A stretch of 64,000 nucleotides of DNA, taken from the IMG/VR virus record IMGVR_UViG_3300037245_003526, positions 88,297-152,296 of that record; one strand, given 5' to 3'. Positions 3,842 to 61,978 of the stretch are shown in pieces. The DNA comes from a virus. The notes beneath the pieces were generated by a model. It was given only the letters and a program-made list of their open reading frames with translations, did no database searches and had not been told where the DNA came from. The stretch's first letter is position 1. Every line of letters starts with the position of its first letter. A program made the translations under genes and the position numbers.

Positions 3842-3895
3842 TTTTTCTCCTTTATATATGGGTCATCATTATATATATAATGATGACCCATAATT

Positions 3896-4639
3896 TTATT
3901 CTTCTTCGGTTAACTGACTTCTTGAATAGATATTAATATTAATATCAGAGATTGATGTACTACATAAATTACTACAAATTGCTTCACGATAGTTATACAT
4001 CTTGAAAACTATATCCCCTTCATGATCAATTATAAATGGAGTATTTATTAAACTACTTGTAGCTTGAAGTTGTCTTTCAGTAGTTATTTCACCCATAATT
4101 TTTGCAGATTGTTCCATACTCTGAGTCTGCATAGTTAAAGAAGAAAGTTCACCCTCAAATTTAACTTGCATTGAATTAACATTAAATCCCTGAGATATGA
4201 CTCTCATTCTATCTGAAATAACTTTTGAAATATCAGTAGACAATATTAAATCATCCTCATTAATAGGAAATATGCTTGCTAATTCTTCCTCGTCGATAAA
4301 CTTATTATCAATAAATTCAAGATCAGGACCTTCAAATTTTAAAGATGAGTATTGATCTGAAAATGAAAAACTTCCATCATCATTTACTGTAATCTCGACT
4401 TCTTGTTCTGTAAATATTTTCAATAGATCAAGTTTAGTTTTTATACTGATCAATGGAATATTTAAATCTTCAAGAATTGGAGTTAAATCAATTTCAAGAA
4501 CTGTAGCTGAATCATCAGTTTTTTGTCTTAATATTCCTTCTCTAATATCAGCATCGTTACATATATCTCTCAAAATTCCCAAACACCTCAACAACTCTTC
4601 ATACCTTTCACCATCTAAATTTACTTGCTGCATAACCAT
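3896..4639 (-). CDS. acidic hypothetical protein. Possibly a sliding-clamp-like replication accessory protein; tentative.
   Basis: Start moved to the internal ATG at 4639 (MVMQQVNL), which has RBS AGGAAAGGAG 5 nt upstream. The protein is acidic, ~247 aa, and sits inside the replication module. No direct motif match. Confidence 0.3.
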   Translation of the reverse strand: MVMQQVNLDGERYEELLRCLGILRDICNDADIREGILRQKTDDSATVLEIDLTPILEDLNIPLISIKTKLDLLKIFTEQEVEITVNDDGSFSFSDQYSSLKFEGPDLEFIDNKFIDEEELASIFPINEDDLILSTDISKVISDRMRVISQGFNVNSMQVKFEGELSSLTMQTQSMEQSAKIMGEITTERQLQATSSLINTPFIIDHEGDIVFKMYNYREAICSNLCSTSISDININIYSRSQLTEEE

Positions 4640-4812
4640 TTCTCCTTTCCTGTTATCCCTTGTGACCAAAGTCTTTTGGCCATTCTATAAATTGCAACTC
4701 CACCCATTTTTTCAAACTCTTTTTTTCCCACACGTTCTATTATACTTTTAAGAACTTCAGGGTGCTTATTTCTAACCAATTTAAAAATTTGCTTCGCTCT
4801 CTTACCTCTCAT
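4621..4812 (-). CDS. small basic hypothetical protein
   Basis: 63-aa Lys/Arg-rich ORF. Confidence 0.3.
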   Translation of the reverse strand: MRGKRAKQIFKLVRNKHPEVLKSIIERVGKKEFEKMGGVAIYRMAKRLWSQGITGKEKWLCSK

Positions 4813-5203
4813 TTTGATCTCCCCTATTCACTTTTTTAATAATACTTATATATACAAATTTATCATCCTTCATTTCATTAGAAGAAATAAAATCTAATGT
4901 TGTAAAACATTTTTCCATAGATCTAGTTATTTCCATAACTCTATCAGCTATATGTTTTGCACTTGCATCACTATTCAATGGAATAGAAAAAATTATTAAA
5001 ACCGAATCTTCATTTTCATAAATAAAATTAAACATGCATGTATTAACACCAAAAAATTTATATAACTTGTCAGATGCTGCGGACTTACAAAATAAACTAA
5101 AATAGTCTATATTAGTAATTGAACCATCATACTTCATTTCATTTGACTCAACTACATTTTCAAATAACTCTTTAAACTTCTGTAATACTATTTCATTACT
5201 CAT
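4802..5203 (-). CDS. hypothetical protein
   Basis: 133-aa ORF. Confidence 0.4.
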   Translation of the reverse strand: MSNEIVLQKFKELFENVVESNEMKYDGSITNIDYFSLFCKSAASDKLYKFFGVNTCMFNFIYENEDSVLIIFSIPLNSDASAKHIADRVMEITRSMEKCFTTLDFISSNEMKDDKFVYISIIKKVNRGDQNER

Positions 5204-5211
5204 GATTTCTC

Positions 5212-6201
5212 CTAAATTATATGTTTCACTATATTAAGAGGCGTATCGTTAAAATCCTTACCTGACCTGTTATAATACACCGTTAACTTATTTATAATAT
5301 GTTTATTAAAATATTTTAATTTTTCATAAAAATTTAAATCTATTCCATTGTCAGATAAAATATGTATGTCCGGTCTAAATATCTGCTCATGAAATACCAA
5401 ACTCTTTATTAAAGAAGCATATGATGTAGCTGATAAAGCAGCTGCATATAAGCTACATTTTCTTTTTATACCTAATGAATCATATATATGTTCCGTATAT
5501 ATGTCAAAAATTCCCTCAGCTAGTACCACCTCCCTTGAATATTTTTTACCTCCAATTAGTTTATAATAATCTAAAAGTTGTGACGGTTGTAGTTTTAATT
5601 TATAATATCTAAAATTAGACATTCGATCTATATTTCTAAATGTAATACTTGATTGATGTTCTGATACAAAACCAACAAAATTACTATGTAAATAATCTTT
5701 AAATCTTTCAACTTTTTCATCAAGTTGAACATCATTCATTTCAATAAACATATTAATATCATAAACCAAACCTTTAATTGATCCAGTATTAATATTTGAG
5801 AATTTTAATCTTTGCCTTACATATAAATCTTTAGTTGCCCATAATGATTTATTTAACTTTGGTAATAAAATATCTTTTGGTTTAAATACATTTCTTTTAA
5901 ATGTAAGTCTTTTCTTAGATAATTCTTTTATCTTAGCTCGATCAACATACTGTGAAGAAGTATCCTTACCAGAAATCTTTTGAATTAATTTATTTATTAT
6001 ACCGCTCTTAGCAGTACAATCAGTATGAAAACAATGAAATATTGGTGACTCTGTTGAAATCCATAAATGATAATGTTTCTTTTCAACTCCAAATTCACAC
6101 CAAGGACATCTGGTGATTATATTCTTTGGTGTTACTTTAATTGGTTCCCCTAAATTCTCCTTTAAATAATCTAAAAAAGAATCTTGATATATTCCTATCA
6201 T
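5212..6201 (-). CDS. DNA primase (zinc-binding domain plus TOPRIM)
   Basis: CHC2-type zinc finger CPWCEF ... HCFHTDC and TOPRIM-like LAEGIFD. Confidence 0.6.
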   Translation of the reverse strand: MIGIYQDSFLDYLKENLGEPIKVTPKNIITRCPWCEFGVEKKHYHLWISTESPIFHCFHTDCTAKSGIINKLIQKISGKDTSSQYVDRAKIKELSKKRLTFKRNVFKPKDILLPKLNKSLWATKDLYVRQRLKFSNINTGSIKGLVYDINMFIEMNDVQLDEKVERFKDYLHSNFVGFVSEHQSSITFRNIDRMSNFRYYKLKLQPSQLLDYYKLIGGKKYSREVVLAEGIFDIYTEHIYDSLGIKRKCSLYAAALSATSYASLIKSLVFHEQIFRPDIHILSDNGIDLNFYEKLKYFNKHIINKLTVYYNRSGKDFNDTPLNIVKHII

Positions 6202-6563
6202 TAATGTCCACTCCTATCTATATCTTTAAATTTATATTGTTCTTCTTTTGCCCTAGTGCTTATTTCTCTTTGTACTATAAGACCTCTATCTAAAATATAA
6301 TCATTTGTTGTAAAAAAATGTCCACATGAATAACACCTTTGATATCTCATATTACAGTGATCTTTTCCATCTTCACTTTGTAATATATCTCCACCACAAT
6401 CAGGACAACAATAATACTTATTTATAAAACTCTTAAGTTCTAATCCATTTCTAACTTTATCACACAACATTGTACAACATGGTAAAACTATACAACCTTT
6501 ACATGTAAAAATAGGAGTATATAATTTTACTTCTTTAAATATTTTTTTTAAAAAATCAATCAT
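6201..6563 (-). CDS. Cys-rich double zinc-ribbon protein, member of a paralogous family
   Basis: Motif CKGCIVLPCCTMLCDKV, then CPDCGG ... CYSCGH. Confidence 0.5.
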   Translation of the reverse strand: MIDFLKKIFKEVKLYTPIFTCKGCIVLPCCTMLCDKVRNGLELKSFINKYYCCPDCGGDILQSEDGKDHCNMRYQRCYSCGHFFTTNDYILDRGLIVQREISTRAKEEQYKFKDIDRSGH

Positions 6564-7171
6564 TAAAACCTTTTCCTGTAAGTTATTATAAATCCTCCAG
6601 CTTTAGCAGGATTAATAAAAATATCTGATGTTACATTTTTAGTTTTTTTAGTAACCCATGACTGTGTTTTATAAAAACGATAAGCTTGATAACATGTAAT
6701 TGCTAATACAGAACCCGCAAAATAATCTGCTGTTTTTCTATCAAAATGATGTTCAATACCTTGAATATCCCCTGAATATCCATCATCACTTCTTTCTCTA
6801 TTTAAACTATGTATGAACCAATAATCAATAGAATACCTTAAAGGTATTATTATGTTTATTAACATCATACCTCTTACAAAATCATCATTATTATTTATCT
6901 TATCTGTTTGAAGAATAACTTCTGATGATATAAGTTGTGATAAAAGTCCTGCTGATAAAATAAAACCTACATCACTTTTATTATTTGATTCGAATTCTAT
7001 TGTACCTGAATTCCATTTAGTATTATTATCTGTAGCTCTAGCAGCTATTACATGACCCGATTCGTGTAATATATAAGAAGATAATGATCCTCCCCAAAGT
7101 TTTATAACTCCAGCATATGAATAACTACTGAATGTAAATATAAATAAAACTATGTAAAATAACTTTTTCAT
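6563..7171 (-). CDS. membrane protein with an HExxH zinc-metalloprotease motif
   Basis: N-terminal signal peptide or TM segment, then ILHESGHVIAA, with 3-4 hydrophobic segments. Confidence 0.4.
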   Translation of the reverse strand: MKKLFYIVLFIFTFSSYSYAGVIKLWGGSLSSYILHESGHVIAARATDNNTKWNSGTIEFESNNKSDVGFILSAGLLSQLISSEVILQTDKINNNDDFVRGMMLINIIIPLRYSIDYWFIHSLNRERSDDGYSGDIQGIEHHFDRKTADYFAGSVLAITCYQAYRFYKTQSWVTKKTKNVTSDIFINPAKAGGFIITYRKRF

Positions 7172-7419
7172 ATTAAATCCATCCTCTCGTACCTATCATA
7201 ATCAAATTGTTCCTCAAAATGATGTTTACAAATTTCACATTCAAATTGATATCCATTATTTACTATAATCTTGCTTATAGCTTTTAAATGGCCATTACAA
7301 TCAGGACATAATTGAGAAATCATACTGTTTTTAATTTCGTCTTTATCATATGTTATCTTATCACATAGTTCTGAACAACATGCTAGAACTATACAATCTC
7401 TACATGGGTATTCAGACAT
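7168..7419 (-). CDS. Cys-rich double zinc-ribbon protein (family member)
   Basis: CRDCIVLACCSELCDKI ... CPDCNG ... CEICKH. Confidence 0.5.
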   Translation of the reverse strand: MSEYPCRDCIVLACCSELCDKITYDKDEIKNSMISQLCPDCNGHLKAISKIIVNNGYQFECEICKHHFEEQFDYDRYERMDLI

Positions 7420-7421
7420 AA

Positions 7422-7952
7422 TTAGACCTCAAATATTCTAAAACATAAATTACTGTTTCTTAATAAAAATTCTGAAGATTTATCATAAAATTCAAATTTA
7501 GTTACTACTATTTCTTTTACTCCAGCATTTATTATTTCAACCATACATGGTGTACATGGTATTCCACAATCCATATACATAGTTGTGTTTCTTGTACATA
7601 CACCAGTACGAGCAGCATTAATAAGACAATTTCTTTCAGCATGTCCAGCTACACACCACTCAAGACCTTCACCACTTTTAAATTTCATAAGTTGTCTGGG
7701 ACATTTTTCAAGATATCTTTCTGCCTCATAATTACATAAACCTGATCGTTTTATTAATTCCTTACAAAATTCATGATCTATTTGAGCTCTTGTATTACAA
7801 TGTGGGATACCTCGTGGAGGTCCATTATATCCTGTGGCAACTATAGAATTATCAATAACCAAAATAGCACCAATTTGTCTTGACATACATTTAGTATTCT
7901 TTCCAACTTCTTTACATATACCTAAAAAATACTTATCCCATCTAGTACTCAT
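7422..7952 (-). CDS. dCMP deaminase
   Basis: WDKYFL ... GAILV ... GYNG ... HAE ... PCTPC zinc-binding motifs of the cytidine/dCMP deaminase fold. Confidence 0.7.
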   Translation of the reverse strand: MSTRWDKYFLGICKEVGKNTKCMSRQIGAILVIDNSIVATGYNGPPRGIPHCNTRAQIDHEFCKELIKRSGLCNYEAERYLEKCPRQLMKFKSGEGLEWCVAGHAERNCLINAARTGVCTRNTTMYMDCGIPCTPCMVEIINAGVKEIVVTKFEFYDKSSEFLLRNSNLCFRIFEV

Positions 7953-7967
7953 TTTTTATTCTCCTTT

Positions 7968-8204
7968 TTAATAATATCTTCCGCCATAAGAATTGAATCT
8001 ATGATTACATCCTTCGCACATAAAAATTGAACCATAACTTGTAGTATCAATATACATTCTCCATTTAGTTCCTCCGCAATCAGGACATATACTTTTATCA
8101 ATTGATTTTTTAATTGCTTCAGTTTTCTTTTTAGATACTTTACCACAAAAGGTTGTACAGCATGGTAAAACTACACAACCATCACATGGATAAGAACCTG
8201 CCAT
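7968..8204 (-). CDS. Cys-rich double zinc-ribbon protein (family member)
   Basis: Start set at the internal ATG (MAGSYPCDGCVVLPCCTTFCGKV), which lies 1 nt after the upstream TAA. CPDCGG ... CEGCNH. Confidence 0.5.
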   Translation of the reverse strand: MAGSYPCDGCVVLPCCTTFCGKVSKKKTEAIKKSIDKSICPDCGGTKWRMYIDTTSYGSIFMCEGCNHRFNSYGGRYY

Positions 8205-8205
8205 T

Positions 8206-8607
8206 TTAAGCCACCATATTTTTAGTAGAAATTGAATGATGATTTGATACTGGAAGATGAACCTGATAATTAGTAACACATGTACTATCATTTACACTAC
8301 AACTATAATTACTTGGCATACCTTCAAATTCAAGTGGTATATCTCTATAATAAGCATTATTGAACTTCTTAAAATCATGATTACATATTTTACAAGACCA
8401 ATTTTCATTTTTAAGTAATATCTTTTTTAAAATTTTTTTATTTCTATTTTTACCCCTAATATTACTACCACAATCTGGACATTCTCTTCTTTTTAAAGCT
8501 CTTTTTATATCAATAGATCTCATATTAGATACTTCATCACACATCTCTGTACAACGTGGTAAAACTATACATCCTTTACATGGGTGTGAATGGTTTACCT
8601 TTTTCAT
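8206..8607 (-). CDS. Cys-rich double zinc-ribbon protein (family member, extended C-terminus)
   Basis: PCKGCIVLPRCTEMCDEV ... CPDCGS ... CKICNH. Confidence 0.5.
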   Translation of the reverse strand: MKKVNHSHPCKGCIVLPRCTEMCDEVSNMRSIDIKRALKRRECPDCGSNIRGKNRNKKILKKILLKNENWSCKICNHDFKKFNNAYYRDIPLEFEGMPSNYSCSVNDSTCVTNYQVHLPVSNHHSISTKNMVA

Positions 8608-8840
8608 GTTCTATATCTCCTTTTACACTTATAACATCTATATTCATTACGACCTTCAATAGGTCTATGTGCAAGTGTCATATCTCTTACTTCCCATTTA
8701 TAAAGTTTATCTTTACAAAATGGACATTTTTCAGTATCAATTATTTGTCTTTTAATATCATTACATATTTTTGTACAACATGCTGATACTATACAATTAT
8801 TACATGTTAATTTATTTGTCATCATAAATCTCGTTTGCAC
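8604..8840 (-). CDS. Cys-rich double zinc-ribbon protein (family member)
   Basis: CNNCIVSACCTKICNDI ... CPFCKD ... CYKCKR. The start could instead be the internal ATG at 8825. Confidence 0.45.
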   Translation of the reverse strand: MQTRFMMTNKLTCNNCIVSACCTKICNDIKRQIIDTEKCPFCKDKLYKWEVRDMTLAHRPIEGRNEYRCYKCKRRYRT

Positions 8841-9039
8841 AATTTGGGCACCTTAAAACATTATATTTAGTTGTTCCTTCACTATTAAACATTACTAAAT
8901 AACGCATAAAATAATTTTCTCCATCACAGAAAGGACATATTGGCGATCCAATTGTGCTTCGTATTCTTTTTCTAAGTTCTTCACATACTTTAGTACAACA
9001 CATTTCTACTATACAACCTTTACATATTTCTGAGTTCAT
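8812..9039 (-). CDS. Cys-rich double zinc-ribbon protein (family member)
   Basis: CKGCIVEMCCTKVCEEL ... CPFCDG ... CPNCAN. Confidence 0.5.
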   Translation of the reverse strand: MNSEICKGCIVEMCCTKVCEELRKRIRSTIGSPICPFCDGENYFMRYLVMFNSEGTTKYNVLRCPNCANEIYDDK

Positions 9040-9374
9040 TATTTATTCAATGGTAATTTAACTACTTGTTTAGAATATCTAATTTTTTCATCATGATTAG
9101 TAGCTCTACTCCATTCACTAAATGGACCAGACTTACAACATGAGTTTTCTTCATTAGGCCACTTAATCGGACAATATTTACTACAATCTTTTAATGAACC
9201 ATATGTATCTACTACCCAATCACATAAAGGACATTGATTAGTACACATTATAATATCACCAAAATTAATATTCCATCTATGCCATTCAGCTTTTTCTTTA
9301 TCAGGATTTTCAGATAACCATTCCCATAATTCTCTAAACAATTTTATACGTTGAGTCTTACTAATTTTTTTCAT
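9039..9374 (-). CDS. Cys-rich hypothetical protein (distinct pattern)
   Basis: CPLCDW ... CSKYCPIKW ... CCK. It lies immediately downstream of the clamp loader gene. Confidence 0.4.
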   Translation of the reverse strand: MKKISKTQRIKLFRELWEWLSENPDKEKAEWHRWNINFGDIIMCTNQCPLCDWVVDTYGSLKDCSKYCPIKWPNEENSCCKSGPFSEWSRATNHDEKIRYSKQVVKLPLNK

Positions 9375-10363
9375 TATTTTCCCCCGTTAATATTTTCAAA
9401 ATATAAACCAACAGTCTGAATGATTTCCATTACCATAGAAGTGAAATGCATCTGAGGAACTAAACAACTTTGAAATGTATTAGAATATTTATTAACTACT
9501 ATTTTAGCAGGTACTGGTATTTGAGGGCTCTTAAATAAATCATAAAAAATCTTTCTATATTCCAAATCATGTTTATCTAATGTATTATTTATTACAGAAA
9601 TTTCTTTATTTATTTTATGTCTTTGTTTATTCTTTATATGATTTGTTATTTCTATAACTGCTGCTATTAATGTTTTTTCAGATGTTAATGCTATATCCCT
9701 ATTTACTTTAACAGTTCCACTACCTGAGCTTCTTTGTAATGTACTTACTATTTTTCTTACATCAGGATATAATTGATCTATAATAAATTGTAAATCTTTT
9801 TCTTTATACTTAATTTTTTCTGATTTAAGAATATTATTACAATAGTTAATTATAAATGCTACAGGTATTCTCTTAAATTCATACTCATTGAATCTTGATC
9901 TAACTGCTTCAGGAATCTTTGAAATATAATTACATGTTATAATAAATCGTCCATATTTAATTTGATATTTTTCAATAACTCCTCTTAAAGATGAAAATGC
10001 TGCTTCAGTTAAATGATCACCCTCATCTATAAAAACTATTTTATATTTATCACCTCCTGCTGGGGGAATTTTCAGAAAAGGTTCAATAACATTCTGAACA
10101 AAATTAATACCCCTTGCCTCTTGAGCTGAACCATTTAATTTTAATAAATTTGCATTAGGAATTTGTAACACTCCTGACGTTGAACATATTATTCTTGCAA
10201 GAGTAGTTTTACCTCCGCCTGGATCTCCATTAAGAAGTATATTAGGTATTTCTTTTGTCTTAAAGAATTTATTAATTTCTTCCTGATATACTTCCGGTAA
10301 AACTATATCCTTTATATCTGCTGGTCTAAATTTTTCAATCCATAGTGTTTGCTCTATATTCAC
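9374..10363 (-). CDS. clamp loader ATPase (RFC small subunit / T4 gp44-like)
   Basis: WIEKFRP N-terminal box, Walker A GDPGGGKTT, Walker B IVFIDEGD, and SRF sensor. Confidence 0.65.
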   Translation of the reverse strand: MNIEQTLWIEKFRPADIKDIVLPEVYQEEINKFFKTKEIPNILLNGDPGGGKTTLARIICSTSGVLQIPNANLLKLNGSAQEARGINFVQNVIEPFLKIPPAGGDKYKIVFIDEGDHLTEAAFSSLRGVIEKYQIKYGRFIITCNYISKIPEAVRSRFNEYEFKRIPVAFIINYCNNILKSEKIKYKEKDLQFIIDQLYPDVRKIVSTLQRSSGSGTVKVNRDIALTSEKTLIAAVIEITNHIKNKQRHKINKEISVINNTLDKHDLEYRKIFYDLFKSPQIPVPAKIVVNKYSNTFQSCLVPQMHFTSMVMEIIQTVGLYFENINGGK

Positions 10364-10375
10364 TTTTATAATCTC

Positions 10376-10828
10376 CTATTCAAAACTACCATATGTTCGA
10401 TAACTAATTCGTAGCTCCATTAATATTTTTCCTAACATATTTCTACCTGTCATTAAACATTCATCTCTACCACATAAACAGTTTCCAAAAATATTATCAT
10501 GATGCTTATTACCCTCAATTAAAAATTCTGGATGTGTTTCAAGTAATTTATTTCTCATTGGTGAATAAGAAAATTTTTCTTTTAAAATTTCTTTCATAAT
10601 ATAAAATTTCACTCCTTCCCAATCATCTCTAAGAGTAACTTTTTGTCCTAAATTTTTAGCATCTCTTGGAGAAACAGCTTCAGAAATCTGTATTTTTTCA
10701 TTAATATCTCTACATTTTTCTGCTTGATAAGCATGTTCAGAAGTAGGATATGTAAAATAATTATAAGTAACAGGTGATCTATAAAAATTACTTAAGAAAA
10801 AATATTTTCCTCTGAAATTAGATATCAT
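10376..10828 (-). CDS. NADAR (YbiA-like) domain protein
   Basis: FLSNFY ... EHAYQAEK ... KNLG ... W ... GRNMLGKILMELR. This is the characteristic NADAR signature. Confidence 0.5.
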   Translation of the reverse strand: MISNFRGKYFFLSNFYRSPVTYNYFTYPTSEHAYQAEKCRDINEKIQISEAVSPRDAKNLGQKVTLRDDWEGVKFYIMKEILKEKFSYSPMRNKLLETHPEFLIEGNKHHDNIFGNCLCGRDECLMTGRNMLGKILMELRISYRTYGSFE

Positions 10829-11154
10829 TACTCCTCCTTATAGTCATCTATTATATTAACCAATTTAATAATTATAAATTGAAATAGCTTTTTTGTATCT
10901 TTAATTTCTTTATTTTCTACTTGAGAAATAATTATATCTCTCAAAGGTTTGAATAAAGATTCAAAATCTATTCCACCTTCTTTAGTATTATACATAGGTG
11001 CTATATTTGATTGAGGTTGTATTGGTGTTTGTATTTTGGGACCATTATGAACTTGATCTTCTGGAAGAGGTTCTTTTATAGGACATCTCCCATCTGCTAA
11101 TATTGGATGATAAAAACTACATTTATCACATTTCGGACTACTTATTTCTGACAT
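10828..11154 (-). CDS. hypothetical protein
   Basis: 108-aa ORF; ATGA overlap with the upstream gene. Confidence 0.4.
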   Translation of the reverse strand: MSEISSPKCDKCSFYHPILADGRCPIKEPLPEDQVHNGPKIQTPIQPQSNIAPMYNTKEGGIDFESLFKPLRDIIISQVENKEIKDTKKLFQFIIIKLVNIIDDYKEE

Positions 11155-11212
11155 TTAAATCTCCTTTTTATTATATATTTGTTATGTTTAAATGAAAAAA
11201 TGACTTGTTGTT

Positions 11213-12514
11213 TTAAAAGAAATCATACACTACAAATAATTTTTCTTTTGCTCTAGTAGCAGCAGTATATAACCATCTTTTATAATCATCATCATTTTGA
11301 TAACTATTTCTCTGTACAAATAGAATAACCCTATTCCATTCACTACCCTGCGATTTATGAACAGTTGTACAATATCCATAATCAAAAAAGTCCACCTGTG
11401 AACATTTACTACGTTTAATAGCAGATTTATATTCATCATGAGTATGATCAAATATATCATTATAACTTTCTTGTCCGAAACAATCTGTATTTACTAAACA
11501 GTCATAATAATTTTCTTCGTCGTCATCCATTTGAACTGTCATTGTTGATAATTCTTTTTCGAAAGGTAATGACCATACAACATTACCTAATTGACCATTC
11601 ATAACTCCCATTTCATGGTTGTTTCGTAGGCATATAACCCTTTCACCAGGATATATATCTTCGACCTCAAAACCAATGTTTTTACGAATATGTGTATTTA
11701 ATTTTACCCTACTTTTATTAAAACCACATAAACAAATTACATCTTTGTCAAATGTAATACTATTAAATACATCACGACATTGTTGATTTTGCCAGTTCAT
11801 TCCAAAGACTTCTTTATTATCTAAAGTAGGCAACGGAACGTGAATTTCTCCATATTTTCTTATGTCTTGAGATAGTTGAATAATTGGATTTGATTCTGCT
11901 TGTCTGTGAATTTTTTTAAGGGTTAGTATTGGTTTTTCCATCAGGTTGAATTTAGATCCAATGGGTGGGAGTTGACCATGATCACCTACTGCTATAATAG
12001 GTACATCATAAGAAAGTAAATCTCTCCATATGTCATGGTTTACCATAGATGCTTCATCAATTATTATTAAATCAACATACTGAAGATCATCTACTTTTTC
12101 CCAATGACTTATTACTTTCTTTCCTTGACTATTCATCCTAGTTACAGGTCTATACATTAAACTATGAATAGTACCTATTAAATTACTTTCAGGTTGTGCT
12201 CTAACTACTCCTTTTTTTGATTTACTATATGTATATTTTACTGATTCAGTTTCTATAACTCCTTTAAGTTTTTTCTTAAGCACTGAAGCAGCTTTTCCTG
12301 TGTAAGCGCAAAATGCTACTTTAAATTTATTATTTTTATTCTTTGGTTTATATCCTCTTTTCTTTTCAATGTAATCAGCTAAAAAAGAAATGAGAGTTGT
12401 TTTCCCAGTACCTGCATAACCACCAATAGTAATATAAGGATCATAACCATTATTATACCATTTTACTACTTTATCACATACACTTTTCTGTTCTTCACTT
12501 AATTCAATAGTCAT
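11213..12514 (-). CDS. SF1 DNA helicase (Dda/RecD-like)
   Basis: Walker A GYAGTGKTT, Walker B IIIDEASMV, and C-terminal TVHKSQGSEW motif. Confidence 0.65.
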   Translation of the reverse strand: MTIELSEEQKSVCDKVVKWYNNGYDPYITIGGYAGTGKTTLISFLADYIEKKRGYKPKNKNNKFKVAFCAYTGKAASVLKKKLKGVIETESVKYTYSKSKKGVVRAQPESNLIGTIHSLMYRPVTRMNSQGKKVISHWEKVDDLQYVDLIIIDEASMVNHDIWRDLLSYDVPIIAVGDHGQLPPIGSKFNLMEKPILTLKKIHRQAESNPIIQLSQDIRKYGEIHVPLPTLDNKEVFGMNWQNQQCRDVFNSITFDKDVICLCGFNKSRVKLNTHIRKNIGFEVEDIYPGERVICLRNNHEMGVMNGQLGNVVWSLPFEKELSTMTVQMDDDEENYYDCLVNTDCFGQESYNDIFDHTHDEYKSAIKRSKCSQVDFFDYGYCTTVHKSQGSEWNRVILFVQRNSYQNDDDYKRWLYTAATRAKEKLFVVYDFF

Positions 12515-12538
12515 CTATTCACCTTTCTTTTTTTTTGT

Positions 12539-12700
12539 TTAAATTATCCACATAATCATTTTACCTATTCCTATTGTCCATGGAACTAAACCAAATAAAA
12601 CTACACATAAAATAAATACAACTATACCAGTTCTTATTACCCAATCAGGTATATTATCATCAGAAAAATTATCATCCTCTAAAACTTTTTCACTACTCAT
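12539..12700 (-). CDS. small membrane protein (53 aa)
   Basis: Not in the ORF track. Manual translation: MSSEKVLEDDNFSDDNIPDWVIRTGIVVFILCVVLFGLVPWTIGIGKMIMWII. RBS GAGGAGG lies 5 nt upstream. Confidence 0.35.
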   Translation of the reverse strand: MSSEKVLEDDNFSDDNIPDWVIRTGIVVFILCVVLFGLVPWTIGIGKMIMWII

Positions 12701-12826
12701 TACAAACCTCCTCATTTTTAATTTGTTCCCATAATCAATTTTATATACTCATTTAAAATAAGTTATTTTTTTGAAATTTAGTAACATATTAATGAGAAAA
12801 TAGAGTAAATTTTTGAAAGGAGACTA

Positions 12827-13744
12827 ATGAATATAATTACAGAAAAAAGTATAAATAAAAATGTGTTTCCAGTAAAGAAAACTGGACCAAGAGAAAAATT
12901 TAAAAAGGGTGAATGTGTTTTCAGAGCTGAAGAAGGTTCTGAATGGGATCATAATTGTTATAAACTTATAGATTTTTTATCTACAAAATTAATGGAAGAA
13001 ATATTATGTGAACACGGAATATGGGAAATTGAAGATAGTTTTATTCAAGATGATTTCTTTCTATTAGATTGTGATGTGTATAATACTGATACTATGGAAA
13101 GAATTCGTAATAGTGATGTGTATAATAAAGTTATAACAGTTCATGGTTATGAATTATTAGATAGTCCACAGTTTAAAAATTGGGAAAGTAAAAGAATAAA
13201 ATCTATAATCGAAAAAGCTTCAAAATGTAAATTTAAAGGTAAACACAATTGCTTATCAAAAACAGAATCAAAAAAATATACTCTTAAAAAATCCCAAATT
13301 AATACTTTGAATTTTAATGCACCTTCTTGGAATTTATTTGATTATGAAGTTGATAATGGAACTAAAGGTAAGGATGGTAAATTTTATAATCTAAAATATA
13401 AATTTAAATTTGGTCCACAGTTTGATGGACAAATTCATAGTGTATTTTTTCTACATAATATTTATACAAAAGCATATGATGTACTTCCTGAAAATTTTTA
13501 TTCATTAACTCCGATTACTAGTAATTTTTATAGATTATATCTACTTGGTCTATATAGTAAAAATAAGAAAAAAGATATCAATGTACATATAGATTTTATT
13601 GAAGTTGCTAGATTATTAGGTTTAACAACTAAAAGTGTATCTCCTCTTAAACAAACTATAAAAAGAATCTTGAATGAACTTAAAAGTAAAGAATTTATTA
13701 AAGGATTTAAAAATAAAAAATCAGTATTCATAATATCAAAATAA
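12827..13744 (+). CDS. putative DNA-binding / replication-initiator-like protein
   Basis: First plus-strand gene after the strand switch. The C-terminus (IDFIEVARLLGLTTKSVSPLKQTIKRIL) looks like a winged helix. It is immediately followed by iterons. Confidence 0.3.
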   Translation: MNIITEKSINKNVFPVKKTGPREKFKKGECVFRAEEGSEWDHNCYKLIDFLSTKLMEEILCEHGIWEIEDSFIQDDFFLLDCDVYNTDTMERIRNSDVYNKVITVHGYELLDSPQFKNWESKRIKSIIEKASKCKFKGKHNCLSKTESKKYTLKKSQINTLNFNAPSWNLFDYEVDNGTKGKDGKFYNLKYKFKFGPQFDGQIHSVFFLHNIYTKAYDVLPENFYSLTPITSNFYRLYLLGLYSKNKKKDINVHIDFIEVARLLGLTTKSVSPLKQTIKRILNELKSKEFIKGFKNKKSVFIISK

Positions 13745-14250
13745 AAGGTGAGACTGAGGGTATATAAAGGTACACATGAGGGTATGAAAAGGTACACATG
13801 AGGGTATATAAAGGTACACATGAGGGTATATAAAGGTACACATTAAGGTGATTTTTTCCTGTTATTTAATAATAATATTAACCTGTTGAAGCTCCTAAAG
13901 CTTTTTTAAACTAAAAAAGCTTATAAAGAGTTCTAAAACTTATTTTAAATAATTAAATATATATTTTTATGTTATATTGAATTAGTATTTTAAATGGGTA
14001 TAATATAGAGATTATAATTAGGATTTTTGGGATTACTTTAATTAAAACCTTAAGTATATAAAAGAGATTCAAATGATATTATCTAGGTAATGCATAAATT
14101 CAAAATATCTAGATTATAAAATTTGATTTTGAGGTAGTATACACTAACCCCTTCCTCCACGTCTGGAACGTGTCAGGGGGTAAGAACTTATTGAATTGAA
14201 TAGGAACAAATAATAAATATATGAATAGAGTATTGACGAAAGGAGCAACT
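13745..14250. promoter_or_regulatory. candidate replication origin and divergent promoter region (iterons plus AT-rich tract)
   Basis: About 500 bp non-coding. It has the iterons, a weak hairpin AAAGCTTTTTT/AAAAAAGCTT at 13897-13922, and a >300-bp tract of very high AT content. It sits at the strand switch. Confidence 0.35.
13756..13843. repeat. 4 tandem 22-bp direct repeats (iterons); unit GAGGGTATATAAAGGTACACAT
   Basis: Read directly. Copies at 13756, 13778 (2 mismatches), 13800 and 13822. Flanked by AAGGTGA at both ends. Confidence 0.8.
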
Positions 14251-18253: not shown

Positions 18254-18652
18254 ATGTTGAATAAATATTTACATATGCTATATGAACAATCTTCTGAAGA
18301 TCTAATAACTCAAAAAATAATAGATTTTTTTATAAAAAATCCATATCCAAAAGATGATATAGTACATGACCTTGCTGAAGAATTAGGTATAGATCCTGAT
18401 GATTTTGAGTCTAAAATATATGCAATTCTTAGTTCTTTTTTATCATTTGGAAGATTTAATGAAGAAGGAATGAAAGAAAGTGATTTTGATTCTGAACAAA
18501 TACGAATGGGAATAGAAGTGGAATATGAACATACAAAAAGTCCTATTATTTCAAAAAGAATTGCATTAGATCATCTTACAGAGTTCTCTGATTATTACAC
18601 CCGTTTGAAAAAAATGGAAGATGAAGCTGAAGAGGAACTTGGAGGAGATTAA
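18254..18652 (+). CDS. acidic hypothetical protein
   Basis: Start at the ATG with RBS AGGAG 8 nt upstream. Its stop overlaps the giant gene's start (TAATG). Confidence 0.4.
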   Translation: MLNKYLHMLYEQSSEDLITQKIIDFFIKNPYPKDDIVHDLAEELGIDPDDFESKIYAILSSFLSFGRFNEEGMKESDFDSEQIRMGIEVEYEHTKSPIISKRIALDHLTEFSDYYTRLKKMEDEAEEELGGD

Positions 18653-55652: not shown

Positions 55653-56185
55653 ATTGTTTAAAATGTGGTGTTGAAACTACAAATACTAAATTTTGTGGAA
55701 GAGCATGTTCTGCTTCATATAACACAAAAGGTAGAAAACATTCTATTGAAACCAAAAGAAAAATAAGTAATACATTAGGTGGAGTAGGTAAAGCAGAAGA
55801 AGAACATTTTTGTAAATTATGTGGACATAATATTTCAAGTGTTAGAAAAACTAAATTATGTGATACATGTAAAATTGGTGAATTTTTATGTGATGTATGT
55901 GGAAAAATTTGTAAAACAGAATTAGGATTAAAAAGTCATAAAGAACAAGGTTGTATTAACAGAAAAATAGGTATAGATTCACAAGGTTATGAATATTTTA
56001 CTGATAATGAAAATAAATTTAAATATGTTCATAGATCTAAAATTGAAGAATTGTTAGGAAGAAAACTAAAAACTAATGAAGTTGTTCATCATAAAGATGA
56101 AATTAAAAAAAATAATGATATAGAAAATCTAGAACTAATGACTATATCTAAACATTCAAAACTTCATGCTGATATGCGCCGATAG
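55649..56185 (+). CDS. HNH endonuclease with N-terminal zinc ribbon and a C2H2-like finger
   Basis: CLKCG ... CGRAC, CDVCGKICKTELGLKSHKEQ, and C-terminal VHHKDEIKKNNDIENLELMTISKHSKLH. Its 3' end overlaps tRNA-Trp. Confidence 0.5.
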   Translation: MNCLKCGVETTNTKFCGRACSASYNTKGRKHSIETKRKISNTLGGVGKAEEEHFCKLCGHNISSVRKTKLCDTCKIGEFLCDVCGKICKTELGLKSHKEQGCINRKIGIDSQGYEYFTDNENKFKYVHRSKIEELLGRKLKTNEVVHHKDEIKKNNDIENLELMTISKHSKLHADMRR

Positions 56186-56251
56186 CTCAAGCGGGTAGAG
56201 TACTGGTCTCCAAAACCAGTGGTGGGGATTCGAGGTCCTCTCGGCGTGCCA
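56176..56251 (+). tRNA. tRNA-Trp (anticodon CCA)
   Basis: Manual cloverleaf. Acceptor GCGCCGA / TCGGCGT, anticodon arm CTGGT-CTCCAAA-ACCAG, T-loop TTCGAGG, 3' GCCA. Confidence 0.55.
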
Positions 56252-56273
56252 TAAAAACGAAAGGAAAATAAGA

Positions 56274-56558
56274 GTGGATGATATAAAAAGATATAAATCA
56301 CAAAACGAAATAAATATACCTATAGTTAGAAACTACAAAGATTTATATATTCTACTTCAAAGACCAATGAATTTTGAAGATGGTTCTGAAGCATATATTC
56401 ATTCTGAAGGAATTATAAGAGAAGATTGGCCGAATGCTCATTTATGTTTTTTAAAATATACAGCAGATAATAAAATAAGGGATTGGCTTTGGTTATTGAG
56501 TCCAGACGAAAAAAAAGGTATGTGTATTTTTGACTTTAAACCAGAGTATACAGTTTAA
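56274..56558 (+). CDS. hypothetical protein. Paralog A of a tandem duplicated pair.
   Basis: MDDIKRYKSQNEI ... C.FDFKPEY. Confidence 0.4.
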   Translation: MDDIKRYKSQNEINIPIVRNYKDLYILLQRPMNFEDGSEAYIHSEGIIREDWPNAHLCFLKYTADNKIRDWLWLLSPDEKKGMCIFDFKPEYTV

Positions 56559-56575
56559 ACGAAAGGTAGTTCTTA

Positions 56576-56860
56576 ATGAATGAATTAAAAAGATATAAAT
56601 CAGCAGAAGAATTGAATAACCCATATTTTGTTAAAGATCATAAGGACTTGAATAAATTAGATAAAAAGTTTGATTTAAAAGAGGGTGATGAAGCAGTTTG
56701 GATTATTGATAGAACTGGCTGTCCAGAATGGTGGAATGGCGAACGTAATTATTATAGAAATATTAATGATTCTAAAAATCCACAATATATATGGTGCCCA
56801 ATTAAGGGTGAAGATGGTGGTTTATGTTTTATTGACTTTGAACCAGAATACTCAATTTAA
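56576..56860 (+). CDS. hypothetical protein (paralog B)
   Basis: MNELKRYKSAEEL ... CFIDFEPEY. Same length as paralog A (94 aa). Confidence 0.4.
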   Translation: MNELKRYKSAEELNNPYFVKDHKDLNKLDKKFDLKEGDEAVWIIDRTGCPEWWNGERNYYRNINDSKNPQYIWCPIKGEDGGLCFIDFEPEYSI

Positions 56861-56877
56861 ACGAAAGGAAATTAACA

Positions 56878-57261: not shown

Positions 57262-57262
57262 A

Positions 57263-57338
57263 CCTCCCATAGCTCAACAGGTAGAGCATTCGCCTTATAA
57301 GCGAAAGACGATAGGTTCGATTCCTACTGGGAGGACCA
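57263..57338 (+). tRNA. tRNA-Ile (anticodon UAU, reads AUA)
   Basis: Manual fold. Acceptor CCTCCCA / TGGGAGG, D-stem GCTC/GAGC, anticodon arm TTCGC-CTTATAA-GCGAA, T-loop TTCGATT, ACCA. Confidence 0.5.
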
Positions 57339-57343
57339 TATAT

Positions 57344-57418: not shown

Positions 57419-57424
57419 AATTAT

Positions 57425-57601: not shown

Positions 57602-57826
57602 ATGATAAGTCCATGTAAAAAATGTATTAATCATTCAAGAATATTTCCAGTATGTTTTGATAAATGCAAATCAATAGAACAATTTCAACATTCATTATTT
57701 CATACTTCTATTATTGAAGAAGCAGAAGATTATGAATATATAACTCAAGATTGTCTATGGAAATATGAAGGTATATATAGACTAGCTAATACGAAAACAC
57801 CTCAAATAGAAGCTCAACTATATTAA
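57602..57826 (+). CDS. Cys-rich zinc-ribbon family member (short)
   Basis: MISPCKKCINHSRIFPVCFDKCKS. Start behind AAACGAAAGGA. The track's longer ORF overlaps the tRNA. Confidence 0.4.
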   Translation: MISPCKKCINHSRIFPVCFDKCKSIEQFQHSLFHTSIIEEAEDYEYITQDCLWKYEGIYRLANTKTPQIEAQLY

Positions 57827-60480: not shown

Positions 60481-60639
60481 ATGTGGGAAATAATAGCTAT
60501 TGTTGCTATAGTTATTGCAGTTATTCTTTTACTTATTGTAATATCTTTAATTGGTGTTTTAAATCAAATAGGAAAAGCTGGTGAAGCTCTACTTGGTGGG
60601 TTTCTTGGAATGACTCTTGGAAGGTATAAGAAAAAATGA
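60481..60639 (+). CDS. small membrane peptide (52 aa)
   Basis: Not in the track. MWEIIAIVAIVIAVILLLIVISLIGVLNQIGKAGEALLGGFLGMTLGRYKKK. RBS AAAGGA. ATGA overlap with the next gene. Confidence 0.4.
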   Translation: MWEIIAIVAIVIAVILLLIVISLIGVLNQIGKAGEALLGGFLGMTLGRYKKK

Positions 60640-60827
60640 TGTTTAATCCTTTTTGTAAAAATCCTTGTAAAAAATGTATTATTTCAATGGTGTGTACAGA
60701 GGAATGTCCAGATAAAATGAATTATTGGACTACGGTAGTAAAAATTTCAGATAGTTTACCTATAGTATCTTTTGGATTTATATTTCTAACATATATTGGA
60801 GGTTATATTATTAAAAATTTTTTATAA
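60636..60827 (+). CDS. Cys-rich family N-terminal motif fused to a C-terminal TM helix
   Basis: CKKCIISMVCTEECPDK, then IVSFGFIFLTYIGGYII. Confidence 0.4.
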   Translation: MMFNPFCKNPCKKCIISMVCTEECPDKMNYWTTVVKISDSLPIVSFGFIFLTYIGGYIIKNFL

Positions 60828-61657: not shown

Positions 61658-61978
61658 ATGATTGTAGAAAAAGTAAAACAATTTTTTTCAAGTGAGAATA
61701 AGGAAATATTTAAATTTATAAAAAAAGAAAAGTACCCTTGTAAAGAATGTCTTGTAGTACAAGTATGTTCAGAACTTTGTGATAAAGTTGAAATTGATGA
61801 ATATAAAATTTTTAATAAAATGATTACTAATAGTTGTTGTCCTGATTGTGGTGGAACAAAACTTTATGAAGGTTCAAGTGGAGGATGTTGTCAAAATATT
61901 TTTTGTACAAATTGTAACCATGGATTTAATGTAACAGCTCCTTTTGAAAAAATTGAAAGAATAGGAAAAATGAGATAG
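61658..61978 (+). CDS. Cys-rich double zinc-ribbon protein (family member)
   Basis: PCKECLVVQVCSELCDKV ... CPDCGG ... CTNCNH. Confidence 0.5.
   Translation: MIVEKVKQFFSSENKEIFKFIKKEKYPCKECLVVQVCSELCDKVEIDEYKIFNKMITNSCCPDCGGTKLYEGSSGGCCQNIFCTNCNHGFNVTAPFEKIERIGKMR

What the first reader, a model, noticed from the sequence alone, without database searches (positions are those of the whole stretch)
6201..9039. Tandem array of six paralogous small Cys-rich double zinc-ribbon proteins inside the replication module
Six adjacent minus-strand genes of 75-133 aa share an N-terminal signature C-x2-C-[IV]-V-x2-CC-[TS]-x2-C-x-[DK]. Each also has a second knuckle CP[DF]C ... C-x2-C. Additional members occur on the plus strand at 57602, 60636 (fused to a TM helix) and 61658. 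That makes at least nine copies in 64 kb. The array is interleaved with a membrane HExxH protein and dCMP deaminase. I do not recognise this signature as a named family. Multi-copy diversifying small proteins in phages are often anti-defence or host-takeover factors. The CC-T-x2-C core differs from common rubredoxin-type or treble-clef ribbons.
Basis: seen in the sequence. Interest (0 to 1): 0.8.

Follow-up and report, generated by a model that had tools for sequence, protein, structure and literature searches.

The report
Expanded phage family of small zinc-binding proteins
The six adjacent genes are real copies of an unnamed family of tiny cysteine-rich, probably zinc-binding proteins found only in uncultivated phages, where they multiply into tandem arrays of up to 28 genes; what they do is still unknown.

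Summary
Six minus-strand genes (6201-9039) and the gene at 61658 share eight invariant cysteines: C-x2-C-x5-C-x3-C near the N-terminus, then a CPxCG...CxxCxHxF zinc ribbon. The gene at 60636 has only the N-terminal motif plus a membrane helix. The gene at 57602 is doubtful. The "CC" is not the conserved core (29% of members).

Pfam, PHROGs, NCBIfam, PADLOC, PDB and 50,697 GenBank phage records contain no matching family. An exhaustive profile search found about 40 further small full-length relatives, all from metagenomes.

The N-terminal Cys4 knuckle is an independent module. It is fused to a ribbon, to a membrane helix, or to short variable tails. Tandem arrays occur in unrelated phages: 8, 15 and 28 copies.

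In the window's T4-like clade, one copy sits directly upstream of the primase gene in 8 of 10 phages. Those copies are only 26-47% identical where the primases are 44-79% identical. The slot holds 0-2 copies in the other nine phages, so the six-gene array is a lineage-specific expansion.

Best reading: early-expressed, metal-scaffolded mini-binders with a variable recognition hairpin, forming an accessory host- or defence-directed repertoire. A primase or DNA-binding helper role and Fe-S binding remain open. Interest is moderate.

The parts
6201..6563 (-). P1, 120 aa. N-terminal Cys4 knuckle (CKGCIVLPCCTMLC) plus a C4 zinc ribbon (CPDCGG...CYSCGH) and a conserved C-terminal ...DIDRSGH. Its stop overlaps the start of the primase-like gene.
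   Evidence: The same subtype lies next to the primase in L006 and L025.
7168..7419 (-). P2, 83 aa family member (CRDCIVLACCSELC ... CPDCNG ... CEICKH).
   Evidence: Orthologues P0007, P0009 and P0010 are 74-81% identical.
7968..8204 (-). P3, 78 aa family member. It starts at MAGSYPC.
   Evidence: Orthologue P0042 is 78 aa and the L003 orthologue is 79 aa.
8206..8607 (-). P4, 133 aa family member. It lacks the 'CC' (CKGCIVLPRCTEMC) and has a Ser/Cys/Tyr-rich C-terminal extension.
   Evidence: Orthologues are P0004-P0006.
8604..8822 (-). P5, 72 aa family member (CPFC-type first ribbon knuckle).
   Evidence: P0013 is the identical 72-aa product.
8812..9039 (-). P6, 75 aa family member (CPFC-type first ribbon knuckle).
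   Evidence: P0011 is the identical product and P0016 the orthologue.
61658..61978 (+). Seventh full member, 106 aa. It belongs to the 'EGPSGG...QNI.C..C.H.FN...ERIG' subtype, which is the most widely conserved subtype.
   Evidence: Relatives are P0003, P0066, P0075, P0085, P0093, P0106, P0120, P0139, P0142, P0153 and copies in L005, L008, L021, L022, L026.
60636..60827 (+). 63-aa protein with the N-terminal Cys4 knuckle (CKKCIISMVCTEEC) followed by one C-terminal hydrophobic helix. It has no ribbon.
   Evidence: Orthologue in L005. Four tandem analogues in L001 at 5993-7248.
57602..57826 (+). Possible divergent member (C-x2-C-x9-C-x3-C, no ribbon). Doubtful.
   Evidence: HMM E=0.024 in a local search.
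5212..6201 (-). Context: 329-aa putative DnaG-type primase, with an N-terminal Cys/His zinc finger and EGxxD / DxGxD Toprim-like motifs. It is translationally coupled to P1.
   Evidence: No direct profile hit. 594 homologues were found, and one carries PF01807 zf-CHC2. The motifs were read from the sequence.
9374..10363 (-). Context: gp44-type clamp-loader ATPase. It forms the upstream boundary of the slot that holds the array.
   Evidence: PF00004 and Gp44_lid. tblastn hits T4-like clamp loaders.
6563..7171 (-). Interleaved non-member: 202-aa protein with a hydrophobic N-terminus and an HESGH motif.
   Evidence: No Pfam, PHROG or NCBIfam hit. Conserved in L003.
7422..7952 (-). Interleaved non-member: dCMP deaminase.
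   Evidence: PF00383, E=4e-16.

Best explanation
These are genuine genes for a phage-specific, so far unnamed family of small (about 45-130 aa) metal-binding proteins. Each is built from an autonomous N-terminal Cys4 knuckle: [YF]-P-C-[KR]-[ED]-C-[LIV]-[VIL]-x3/4-C-[ST]-x2-C, running into a short helix. In most members a C-terminal Cys4 zinc ribbon follows: C-P-x-C-G, then a hairpin of 9-27 residues, then C-x2-C-x-H-x-F.

Shown:
- The eight cysteines are invariant.
- The knuckle also occurs fused to a membrane helix or to short unrelated tails.
- The genes form tandem arrays in several unrelated phages.
- In this window they form one tightly packed block, with many overlapping start and stop codons, running from the clamp-loader gene to the primase gene. 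They are therefore probably transcribed with the replication genes.
- The array is a lineage-specific expansion of a slot that holds 0-2 copies in the nine related phages sampled.

Inferred:
- Each protein folds around two Zn(Cys)4 sites into a rigid mini-scaffold.
- The fast-evolving linker and ribbon hairpin form the recognition surface.
- The paralogues act as stoichiometric binders (inhibitors or adaptors) of different host, rival-phage or nucleic-acid targets. Together they would form an expandable accessory repertoire for host takeover or counter-defence, rather than fixed replisome subunits.
For: Family reality:
- 8 motif hits against 0.05 expected by chance.
- Eight invariant Cys in 51 and in 101 sequences.
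- Orthologues of each paralogue lie in the same order in L003.

Ribbon:
- The profile matches the RPA12, RPB9 and Elf1 ribbons in the PDB only over the C-terminal half.
- AF2 gives beta-strands at pLDDT about 75 there.

Modularity:
- Knuckle plus membrane helix (window 60636; L001 x4; L005).
- Knuckle plus varied tails (L007 x8; L016 x7).

Accessory behaviour:
- Arrays of 28 (L016, a P2-like phage with gpR and gpS), 15 (L015), 8 (L007) and 6 (window).
- Copies in the clamp-loader-to-primase slot are 6, 2, 2, 2, 1, 1, 1, 1, 0, 0 in ten phages of the clade.
- Primase-adjacent copies are 26-47% identical where the primases are 44-79% identical.

Scaffold versus surface: pooled dN/dS is 0.26 in the ribbon knuckles, 0.83 in the linker and 0.95 in the hairpin.

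No enzymatic domain was found in Pfam, PHROGs, NCBIfam or PADLOC.
Against: - No target, partner or phenotype is known, and no cultured phage carries the family.
- The dN/dS values come from a single pair of genomes, with the simple Nei-Gojobori method, in AT-rich DNA. They show relaxed constraint, not proven positive selection.
- The metal is not identified. AF2 is unsure about the knuckle (pLDDT below 50 to about 52).
- Fold searches gave nothing significant.
- A family member directly upstream of the primase gene in 8 of 10 related phages could instead mean a replication role.
Confidence: 0.4

Rival explanations
1. Replication accessory. The ancestral copy is a stand-alone zinc-ribbon partner of the DnaG-type primase, for example in template recognition or in coupling primase to helicase or clamp loader. 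The extra copies are sub-functionalised DNA- or RNA-binding paralogues or specific transcription factors.
For: - A family member lies immediately upstream of the primase gene, mostly with overlapping stop and start, in 8 of 10 phages of the clade.
- Iyer et al. 2021 (PMC7824862) report that DnaG-like primases of T4-like jumbo phages tend to be accompanied by a stand-alone primase-type Zn ribbon. They also suggest that the roughly 35-copy ZnR expansion of Bacillus phage G may be transcription factors or DNA-binding proteins.
- The ribbon resembles the nucleic-acid-contacting ribbons of RPA12, RPB9 and Elf1.
Against: - No match to the primase zinc-ribbon profiles PF01807 or PF08273 at E<=1.
- The putative primase has its own zinc finger.
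- Adjacent copies belong to different subtypes. They are 26-47% identical where the primases are 44-79% identical.
- Two of 10 phages have an unrelated 76-aa gene in that position.
- Arrays also occur beside tail genes in a P2-like phage.
- From general knowledge of T4 (not tested here): the stretch upstream of T4 gene 61 is itself a hotspot for small accessory genes such as dmd and sp, so adjacency alone is weak evidence.
Confidence: 0.27
2. Iron-sulfur proteins. The C-x2-C-x5-C(-x3-C) knuckle binds a [4Fe-4S] or [2Fe-2S] cluster, as the same spacing does in SPASM domains, and as C-x2-C-x5-C does (from memory) in WhiB-like proteins, AddB/Cas4 and EndoIII. The proteins would then act as redox-sensitive regulators or electron carriers.
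For: - The spacing is identical to the SPASM CX2CX5CX3C motif. This is the only context in which the literature search finds that motif.
- The 60636 protein weakly matches the SPASM part of TIGR04463 (E=0.035).
- One L007 member reads CxxCxxCxxCxxxCP and scores 19.2 bits against Fer4_15, whose cut-off is 22.4.
Against: - All these matches are below threshold and rest on the motif alone.
- The SPASM architecture (radical-SAM core, upstream cysteines) is absent.
- No Whib or Fer4 family hit for the window proteins.
- The P-C-x2-C knuckle and CPxCG ribbons are typical of structural zinc sites (general knowledge).
- Knuckle-only members have just four Cys in 14 residues.
Confidence: 0.12
3. Precursor peptides of a ribosomally made, post-translationally modified product. 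The conserved N-terminal part would act as a leader, the variable C-terminal part as a core, and the genes would be arrayed in tandem like other RiPP precursor families.
For: The conserved N-terminus, variable C-terminus and tandem multi-copy layout match superficially. The cysteine spacing recalls radical-SAM/SPASM systems.
Against: - No ORF of 200 aa or more with a CxxxCxxC radical-SAM motif occurs in the window or in L001, L007, L015 or L016.
- No maturase-like Pfam hit was found in the flanks that were examined.
- Most members carry a folded 40-50-residue zinc ribbon, and some a membrane helix.
- The conserved part is a metal-site-like Cys4 cluster rather than a leader helix.
Confidence: 0.02

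Closest known systems
Lineage-specific expansion of about 35 zinc-ribbon proteins in Bacillus phage G (Iyer et al. 2021, PMC7824862)
   Same: Both are large tandem expansions of small, otherwise uncharacterised zinc-ribbon proteins in a large phage. Foldseek places phage G gp448 and gp460 among the weak top viral hits (E about 0.14).
   Different: The phage G proteins are about 200 aa. They have a central CP[IV]C...C-x3-C ribbon and a conserved C-terminal YWKENDRYL motif, with no N-terminal Cys4 knuckle. The family HMM touches only their ribbon, at local E-values of about 1e-3 or weaker. They are a different family.
Classical C4 zinc ribbons (TFIIS/RPB9/RPA12 C-terminal ribbon, Elf1, ribosomal L37ae)
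   Same: The C-terminal half has two CxxC knuckles separated by a beta-hairpin. Profile hits to RPA12, RPB9 and Elf1 have E between 9e-5 and 1e-2. AF2 predicts strands there.
   Different: The similarity is generic to the fold. Fold searches were not significant. Those proteins have no equivalent of the N-terminal knuckle.
Small prophage zinc-binding proteins: Lar restriction-alleviation family, ECs_2282, YnfU (NCBIfam, Pfam PF14354)
   Same: Similar size, phage origin and CPxCG...CxxC ribbon. There are weak matches: ECs_2282 at 23 bits, E=5.7e-5, and Lar at E=0.08-0.9.
   Different: All scores are below the curated cut-offs (23 against 37 bits; 13 against 39.6 bits). These families have no N-terminal knuckle, and tandem expansion is not described for them.
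SPASM/twitch domain CX2CX5CX3C motif of radical-SAM maturases
   Same: The cysteine spacing of the N-terminal knuckle is identical.
   Different: In SPASM the motif is embedded in a seven- or eight-Cys domain behind a radical-SAM core, and its cysteines are shared between two Fe-S clusters (the cluster sharing is general knowledge, not tested). Here it stands alone at the N-terminus of a 45-130-aa protein. The best score is 12.8 bits against a cut-off of 525.
Stand-alone primase-type zinc ribbon accompanying DnaG primases in T4-like jumbo phages (Iyer et al. 2021)
   Same: A small zinc-ribbon gene lies next to the DnaG-type primase gene in a T4-like large phage, in 8 of 10 phages sampled here.
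   Different: No sequence match to the primase zinc-ribbon profiles. The putative primase here keeps its own finger. The adjacent copies evolve much faster than the primase.

Membership tests
C4 zinc ribbon fold (generic) | Two Cys-x2-Cys knuckles separated by a beta-hairpin | tested here: met
   C-x2-C-x9-27-C-x2-C is present in 101 of 101 ribbon-type members. AF2 predicts strands 44-51, 56-61 and 67-71 at pLDDT about 75. The profile matches RPA12, RPB9 and Elf1 ribbons.
C4 zinc ribbon fold (generic) | Significant structural match to a solved ribbon | tested here: inconclusive
Lar / ECs_2282 / YnfU small prophage zinc proteins | Score at or above the curated family cut-off | tested here: not met
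   ECs_2282 scored 23 bits against 37. Lar TIGR03655 scored 13.2 against 39.6. YnfU scored 15 against 36. PF14354 scored 10.2 against 28.6.
Primase-type zinc ribbon (PF01807 zf-CHC2, PF08273) | Profile match to the primase zinc-binding domain | tested here: not met
   No hit at E<=1 for any of the nine proteins.
Primase-type zinc ribbon (PF01807 zf-CHC2, PF08273) | Encoded next to a DnaG-type primase | tested here: met
   A member lies directly upstream of the primase homologue in 8 of 10 phages. The identification as primase rests on one homologue with PF01807 and on motifs read from the sequence.
SPASM domain | CX2CX5CX3C motif | tested here: met
   The spacing is present in 94 of 101 members; the other 7 have x6.
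SPASM domain | Location C-terminal to a radical-SAM core, with additional upstream cysteines | tested here: not met
   The motif starts a median of 6 residues from the N-terminus of proteins of 45-130 aa. TIGR04463 scored 12.8 bits against a cut-off of 525. No CxxxCxxC ORF was found nearby.
Bacillus phage G ZnR expansion | About 200-aa architecture with a central ribbon and a C-terminal YWKENDRYL motif | tested here: not met
   Translations of gp32 and gp448-474 were compared. The window family lacks that motif and the phage G proteins lack the N-terminal knuckle. HMM E-values were 8e-4 or weaker, over the ribbon only.
WhiB-like / ferredoxin Fe-S proteins | Profile match (PF02467 Whib, Fer4 families) | tested here: not met
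   No Whib or Fer4 hit for the window proteins. One L007 protein scored 19.2 bits against Fer4_15, whose cut-off is 22.4.
WhiB-like / ferredoxin Fe-S proteins | Bound iron-sulfur cluster | not testable with these tools
   This needs metal analysis and spectroscopy of purified protein.
Known anti-phage defence components (PADLOC) | Profile match | tested here: not met
   No hit except DrmB at E=0.078 (9.3 bits) for one protein.

The most novel reading that the evidence does not exclude
The N-terminal 14-residue Cys4 knuckle is a new autonomous metal-binding mini-domain. It would serve as the common 'handle' of a modular, rapidly expandable phage repertoire: fused to zinc ribbons, membrane anchors or short tails, and amplified to as many as 28 tandem genes. 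The variable parts would each neutralise a different host defence or housekeeping target. That would make it a previously unrecognised, widespread class of phage counter-defence or host-takeover proteins.
Probability: 0.3. Interest if true: 0.8.

Novelty: new variant of a known kind. Interest (0 to 1): 0.55.

Why it matters
Small zinc-ribbon genes are common clutter in phage genomes and are usually ignored. This family has three features that make it worth attention:
- It has a sharply defined, uncatalogued N-terminal module.
- That module is combined with three kinds of C-terminal part.
- The genes amplify strongly (6, 8, 15 and 28 tandem copies) in unrelated uncultivated phages.

These are the features expected of a binder scaffold used in phage-host conflict. 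If so, the family would add a large set of candidate anti-defence or host-takeover proteins and a compact natural metal-stabilised scaffold.

If the primase-adjacent copy instead assists priming, it would reveal an unrecognised accessory factor in a large clade of T4-like phages. The primase of this clade has at least 594 homologues in public data.

Either way, a profile for this family would annotate many currently anonymous phage genes.

Tried and rejected
1. Pfam, PHROGs, NCBIfam and PADLOC scans of all nine proteins and of knuckle-only relatives gave only sub-threshold, generic ribbon hits.

2. tblastn of four different family members against 50,697 GenBank phage records gave no credible hit.

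4. The exhaustive profile search was contaminated by long multi-repeat proteins matching only the ribbon half of the profile. A PDB profile search showed that C2H2 zinc-finger arrays match that half (the CPxCG...CxxC pattern bridges two adjacent fingers). Only the small full-length hits were counted.

5. Word-indexed protein searches found only close orthologues.

6. A genome-contig scan with [KIT][YF]PCKEC[ILV][VI] found no relative in GTDB species genomes. Scans of viral contigs with single L015 and L016 proteins and with a degenerate L016 DNA pattern found nothing.

7. The promoter and terminator scan was not above chance.

8. Recent DNA-level duplication was rejected. Only the knuckle-coding 57 nt is 67-82% identical between copies, as expected from conserved residues and AT-biased codons.

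9. The RiPP-precursor idea was rejected for lack of any radical-SAM-type ORF.

10. Identity with the Bacillus phage G ZnR expansion was rejected after reading those genes.

11. Literature searches for the motif found only SPASM papers and one unrelated zinc-finger preprint. Searches for tandem cysteine-rich phage families found nothing matching.

Full report
**1. What is in the sequence**

The window is AT-rich (GC 25-35%). It comes from a large T4-like phage.
- The same proteins occur on a 244,552-bp JGI contig.
- A Logan contig is 100% identical to window 3863-13784.
- The region 1-12.5 kb on the minus strand carries several replication genes:
  - a RuvC-like resolvase and a 5'-3' exonuclease;
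  - a gp44-type clamp-loader ATPase whose best GenBank matches are T4-like phages;
  - a NADAR protein;
  - a Dda/RecD-like helicase.

Between the clamp-loader gene (9374-10363) and a 329-aa gene (5212-6201) lie ten small genes with no real intergenic space. Junctions range from an 11-nt overlap to a 15-nt gap. In order they are:
- a 111-aa Cys-rich protein;
- P6, P5, P4, P3;
- dCMP deaminase (PF00383, E=4e-16);
- P2;
- a 202-aa protein with an HESGH motif;
- P1.

**2.

- All six proteins and the product of 61658-61978 share eight invariant cysteines.
- The motif C-x2-C-x5/6-C-x3-C occurs 8 times in the six-frame translation. The mean in 200 dinucleotide-preserving shuffles is 0.05.
- The eighth hit, 60636-60827, has the N-terminal motif followed by a hydrophobic helix and no ribbon.
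- The 57602 ORF has a longer loop (x9). It scores only E=0.024 against the family HMM, so I treat it as doubtful.
The first C is R, V, N or S in several members and is present in 29% of 94 aligned N-modules.
- The true start of P3 gives 78 aa, not 107.
- A 112-aa protein on the source contig (P0015) is P4 without its N-terminal knuckle, which looks like a mis-called start.

**3. The family**

*Known libraries.* No profile library contains this family.
- Pfam, PHROGs, NCBIfam and PADLOC give only sub-threshold hits, and those touch only the C-terminal half.
- A profile search of PDB sequences matches only profile positions of about 25-85. The hits are C2H2 finger pairs (the CPxCG...CxxC pattern bridges two adjacent fingers) and true ribbons: RPA12, RPB9/C11, Elf1 and L37ae.
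- AF2 models the ribbon at pLDDT about 75 and leaves the N-terminal knuckle at about 50 or lower.
- tblastn with four different members finds nothing credible in 50,697 GenBank phage records.

*Relatives in metagenomes.* An exhaustive HMM search of 1.84 billion representative proteins returned 150 listed hits.
- About 40 are small (72-201 aa) proteins that match the profile end to end.
- The remaining listed hits are long multi-repeat proteins that match only the ribbon half.
- The small proteins all carry the eight cysteines.

*Family pattern.* I combined these with members found in fetched loci. All 101 ribbon-type members fit C-x2-C-x5/6-C-x3-C-x12-32-C-x2-C-x9-27-C-x2-C.
- The N-module logo is [YF]-P-C-[KR]-[ED]-C-[LIV]-[VIL]-x3-C-[ST]-[EK]-x-C-[DF]-K-[VLI].
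- It starts a median of six residues from the N-terminus.
- The ribbon knuckles read C-P-D-C-G and C-x2-C-x-H-x-F.

**4. The N-terminal knuckle is an independent module, and tandem amplification is a family trait**

| Locus | Description | Family genes found |
|---|---|---|
| L001 | Related T4-like phage | Four tandem knuckle + membrane-helix genes, plus two ribbon-type genes |
| L005 | Close relative of the window phage | Orthologues of the 60636 and 61658 genes near RtcB |
| L007 | 30-kb IMG/VR contig, GC 38% | Eight consecutive genes of 42-124 aa, each starting with the knuckle, followed by unrelated tails |
| L015 | 8.2-kb contig | 15 consecutive ribbon-type genes |
| L016 | 8.2-kb contig with P2-type tail-completion genes gpR and gpS | 28 consecutive family genes: 21 ribbon-type, 7 short |

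- Only one pair in L016 is a recent DNA-level duplicate.
- In the window, only the knuckle-coding 57 nt is recognisably similar between copies.
- The arrays are therefore old and diverged. The window paralogues are 25-41% identical.

**5. Evolution of the window array**

*Synteny.* L003 comes from a related phage with about 60-90% protein identity. It has the same gene order: 111-aa gene, P6, P5, P4, P3, dCMP deaminase, P2, HExxH. Each paralogue is therefore individually maintained.

*Selection.* Nei-Gojobori dN/dS between the window and L003:

| Gene or region | dN/dS |
|---|---|
| P2 | 0.35 |
| P4 | 0.42 |
| P6 | 0.77 |
| P3 | 0.79 |
| P5 | 1.24 |
| dCMP deaminase | 0.28 |
| Ribbon knuckles (pooled over five genes) | 0.26 |
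| N-module (pooled) | 0.68 |
| Linker (pooled) | 0.83 |
| Hairpin (pooled) | 0.95 |

This pattern fits a rigid scaffold with weakly constrained or diversifying surfaces. It rests on one genome pair and a simple method, so it does not prove positive selection.

*The neighbouring 329-aa gene.*
- It has no direct profile, PDB or GenBank-phage match.
- It has 594 metagenomic homologues, and one carries the primase zinc-finger PF01807.
- Its sequence shows a CxxC...HC.H..C finger and EGxxD / DxGxD Toprim-like motifs.
- I therefore treat it as a putative DnaG/gp61-type primase.

*Sampling the primase clade.* I examined ten phages from this clade: the window, L001, L006 and L020-L026.
- A family member lies directly upstream of the primase gene in eight of them. 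The exceptions are L023 and L024, which have an unrelated 76-aa gene there.
- Copy number in the clamp-loader-to-primase slot is 6 in the window, 2 in L001, L021 and L026, and 1 in L006, L020, L022 and L025.
- L020 has a primase 79% identical to the window's and carries only one copy. The six-gene array is therefore a lineage-specific expansion.
- The primase-adjacent copies belong to different subtypes. They are 26-47% identical where the primases are 44-79% identical.
- The same slot also holds other small Cys-rich proteins: the 111/117-aa ELWEWLS family and DnaJ-type CxxCxGxG proteins.

**6. Interpretation**

*Shown:*
- The family is real and phage-restricted, as far as the searched collections go.
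- It has eight invariant cysteines arranged as a knuckle plus a ribbon.
- The knuckle is modular.
- The genes amplify in tandem in several phage lineages.
- They behave as accessory genes in copy number and evolutionary rate.

*Inferred:*
- Two Zn(Cys)4 sites stabilise a mini-scaffold.
- The linker and hairpin are the binding surface.
- The paralogues bind different targets.

*Best guess (confidence 0.4).* The family is an accessory repertoire directed at host or competitor macromolecules (host takeover or counter-defence), made together with the replication genes.

*Main rival (0.27).* The family has a replication-linked nucleic-acid-binding role.
- For: the conserved position next to the primase, and the report by Iyer et al. 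2021 that T4-like jumbo phages pair DnaG primases with a stand-alone zinc ribbon.
- Against: no match to primase-ribbon profiles, fast divergence, absence in 2 of 10 phages, and arrays beside tail genes in a P2-like phage.
- From general knowledge, the region upstream of T4 gene 61 is also a hotspot for small accessory genes. Adjacency is therefore weak evidence.

*Fe-S binding (0.12).* This cannot be excluded.
- The spacing equals the SPASM CX2CX5CX3C motif.
- One relative nearly reaches the Fer4_15 threshold.

*RiPP-precursor reading.* This is unlikely. No radical-SAM-type ORF is present in any of the loci checked.

**7. Comparison with what is known**

- The nearest precedent in kind is the roughly 35-copy zinc-ribbon expansion of Bacillus phage G (PMC7824862). 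I read those genes (gp32, gp448-474). They form a different family: about 200 aa, a C-terminal YWKENDRYL motif and no N-terminal knuckle.
- Lar, ECs_2282 and YnfU-type prophage zinc proteins are the nearest named sequence families. All scores are below their cut-offs.
- I classify the finding as a new variant of a known kind: small phage zinc-ribbon proteins that are prone to lineage-specific expansion. What sets it apart is an uncatalogued, modular N-terminal Cys4 knuckle and very large arrays.

**8. Verdict**

Interest is 0.55. A specialist would find the modular knuckle and the 28-gene arrays noteworthy, but the function remains inferred and no cultured phage is available for experiments.

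Noticed in passing
window 62029-62403 (+): A phage-encoded tmRNA (Rfam RF00023, 132.6 bits; ARAGORN tag peptide ADNLAFAAADDYATAALAA). It lies immediately downstream of the family member at 61658-61978.
   Followed up: partly
window 56176-58841 (+): A cluster of six tRNA genes (Trp, Ile-TAT, Asn x2, Gln, Ser), interspersed with small ORFs. The doubtful family member at 57602 is among them.
   Followed up: partly
window 58188-58748 and 59351-60475 (+): The sequence shows an HNH-like endonuclease and an RtcB-like RNA ligase. The same neighbourhood occurs in L005 (RtcB by Pfam). In L008 the RtcB homologue is 748 aa, more than twice the window's 374 aa, which suggests an intein.
   Followed up: no
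window 9039-9374 (-): A 111-aa Cys-rich protein (ELWEWLS...CPLC...YCPIKW) lies directly after the clamp-loader gene. It is conserved in L003 and L020. In related phages the same slot holds DnaJ-type CxxCxGxG zinc-finger proteins instead (L006, L021-L026). The clamp-loader-to-primase slot seems to collect small zinc proteins of several unrelated families.
   Followed up: partly
window 6563-7171 (-): A 202-aa protein with a hydrophobic N-terminus and an HESGH motif sits inside the array. It has no hit in Pfam, PHROGs or NCBIfam. It is conserved (92% over 100 aa) in L003, and in this short comparison shows almost no synonymous change (dS 0.016).
   Followed up: partly
window 8206-8330 (-), C-terminal tail of P4; also P0084: P4 and its orthologues carry a Ser/Cys/Tyr-rich low-complexity C-terminal extension (...NYSCSVNDSTCVTNYQVH...). 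An unrelated family member, P0084, has a similar Cys/Ser/Tyr-rich tail.
   Followed up: no
window 56274-56558 and 56576-56860 (+): Two adjacent 94-aa ORFs are clearly paralogous to each other (...KRYKS..E.N...F.PEY..). They form a second small tandem duplication unrelated to the zinc family.
   Followed up: no
window 18652-26292 (+): A single 2,546-aa ORF, probably a giant structural or tail-fibre-like protein. It was not analysed.
   Followed up: no
window 62501-62944 (+): A 147-aa protein with a signal- or lipoprotein-like N-terminus, followed by a Cys/Pro-rich stretch (CAPTVCPDPPPCPPCPSCPCPC).
   Followed up: no
L016 69-6476; L015 2623-7395; L007 7617-9295: The largest arrays of the family found: 28, 15 and 8 consecutive genes on metagenomic or viral contigs. 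L016 continues into P2-type tail-completion genes gpR and gpS.
   Followed up: partly
L021 15242-15460 and L026 10841-11071: Related phages of the same primase clade encode a small protein with an Acb2/Tad1-hairpin Pfam hit. This is a known anti-defence sponge fold, lying a few kb downstream of the primase module.
   Followed up: no
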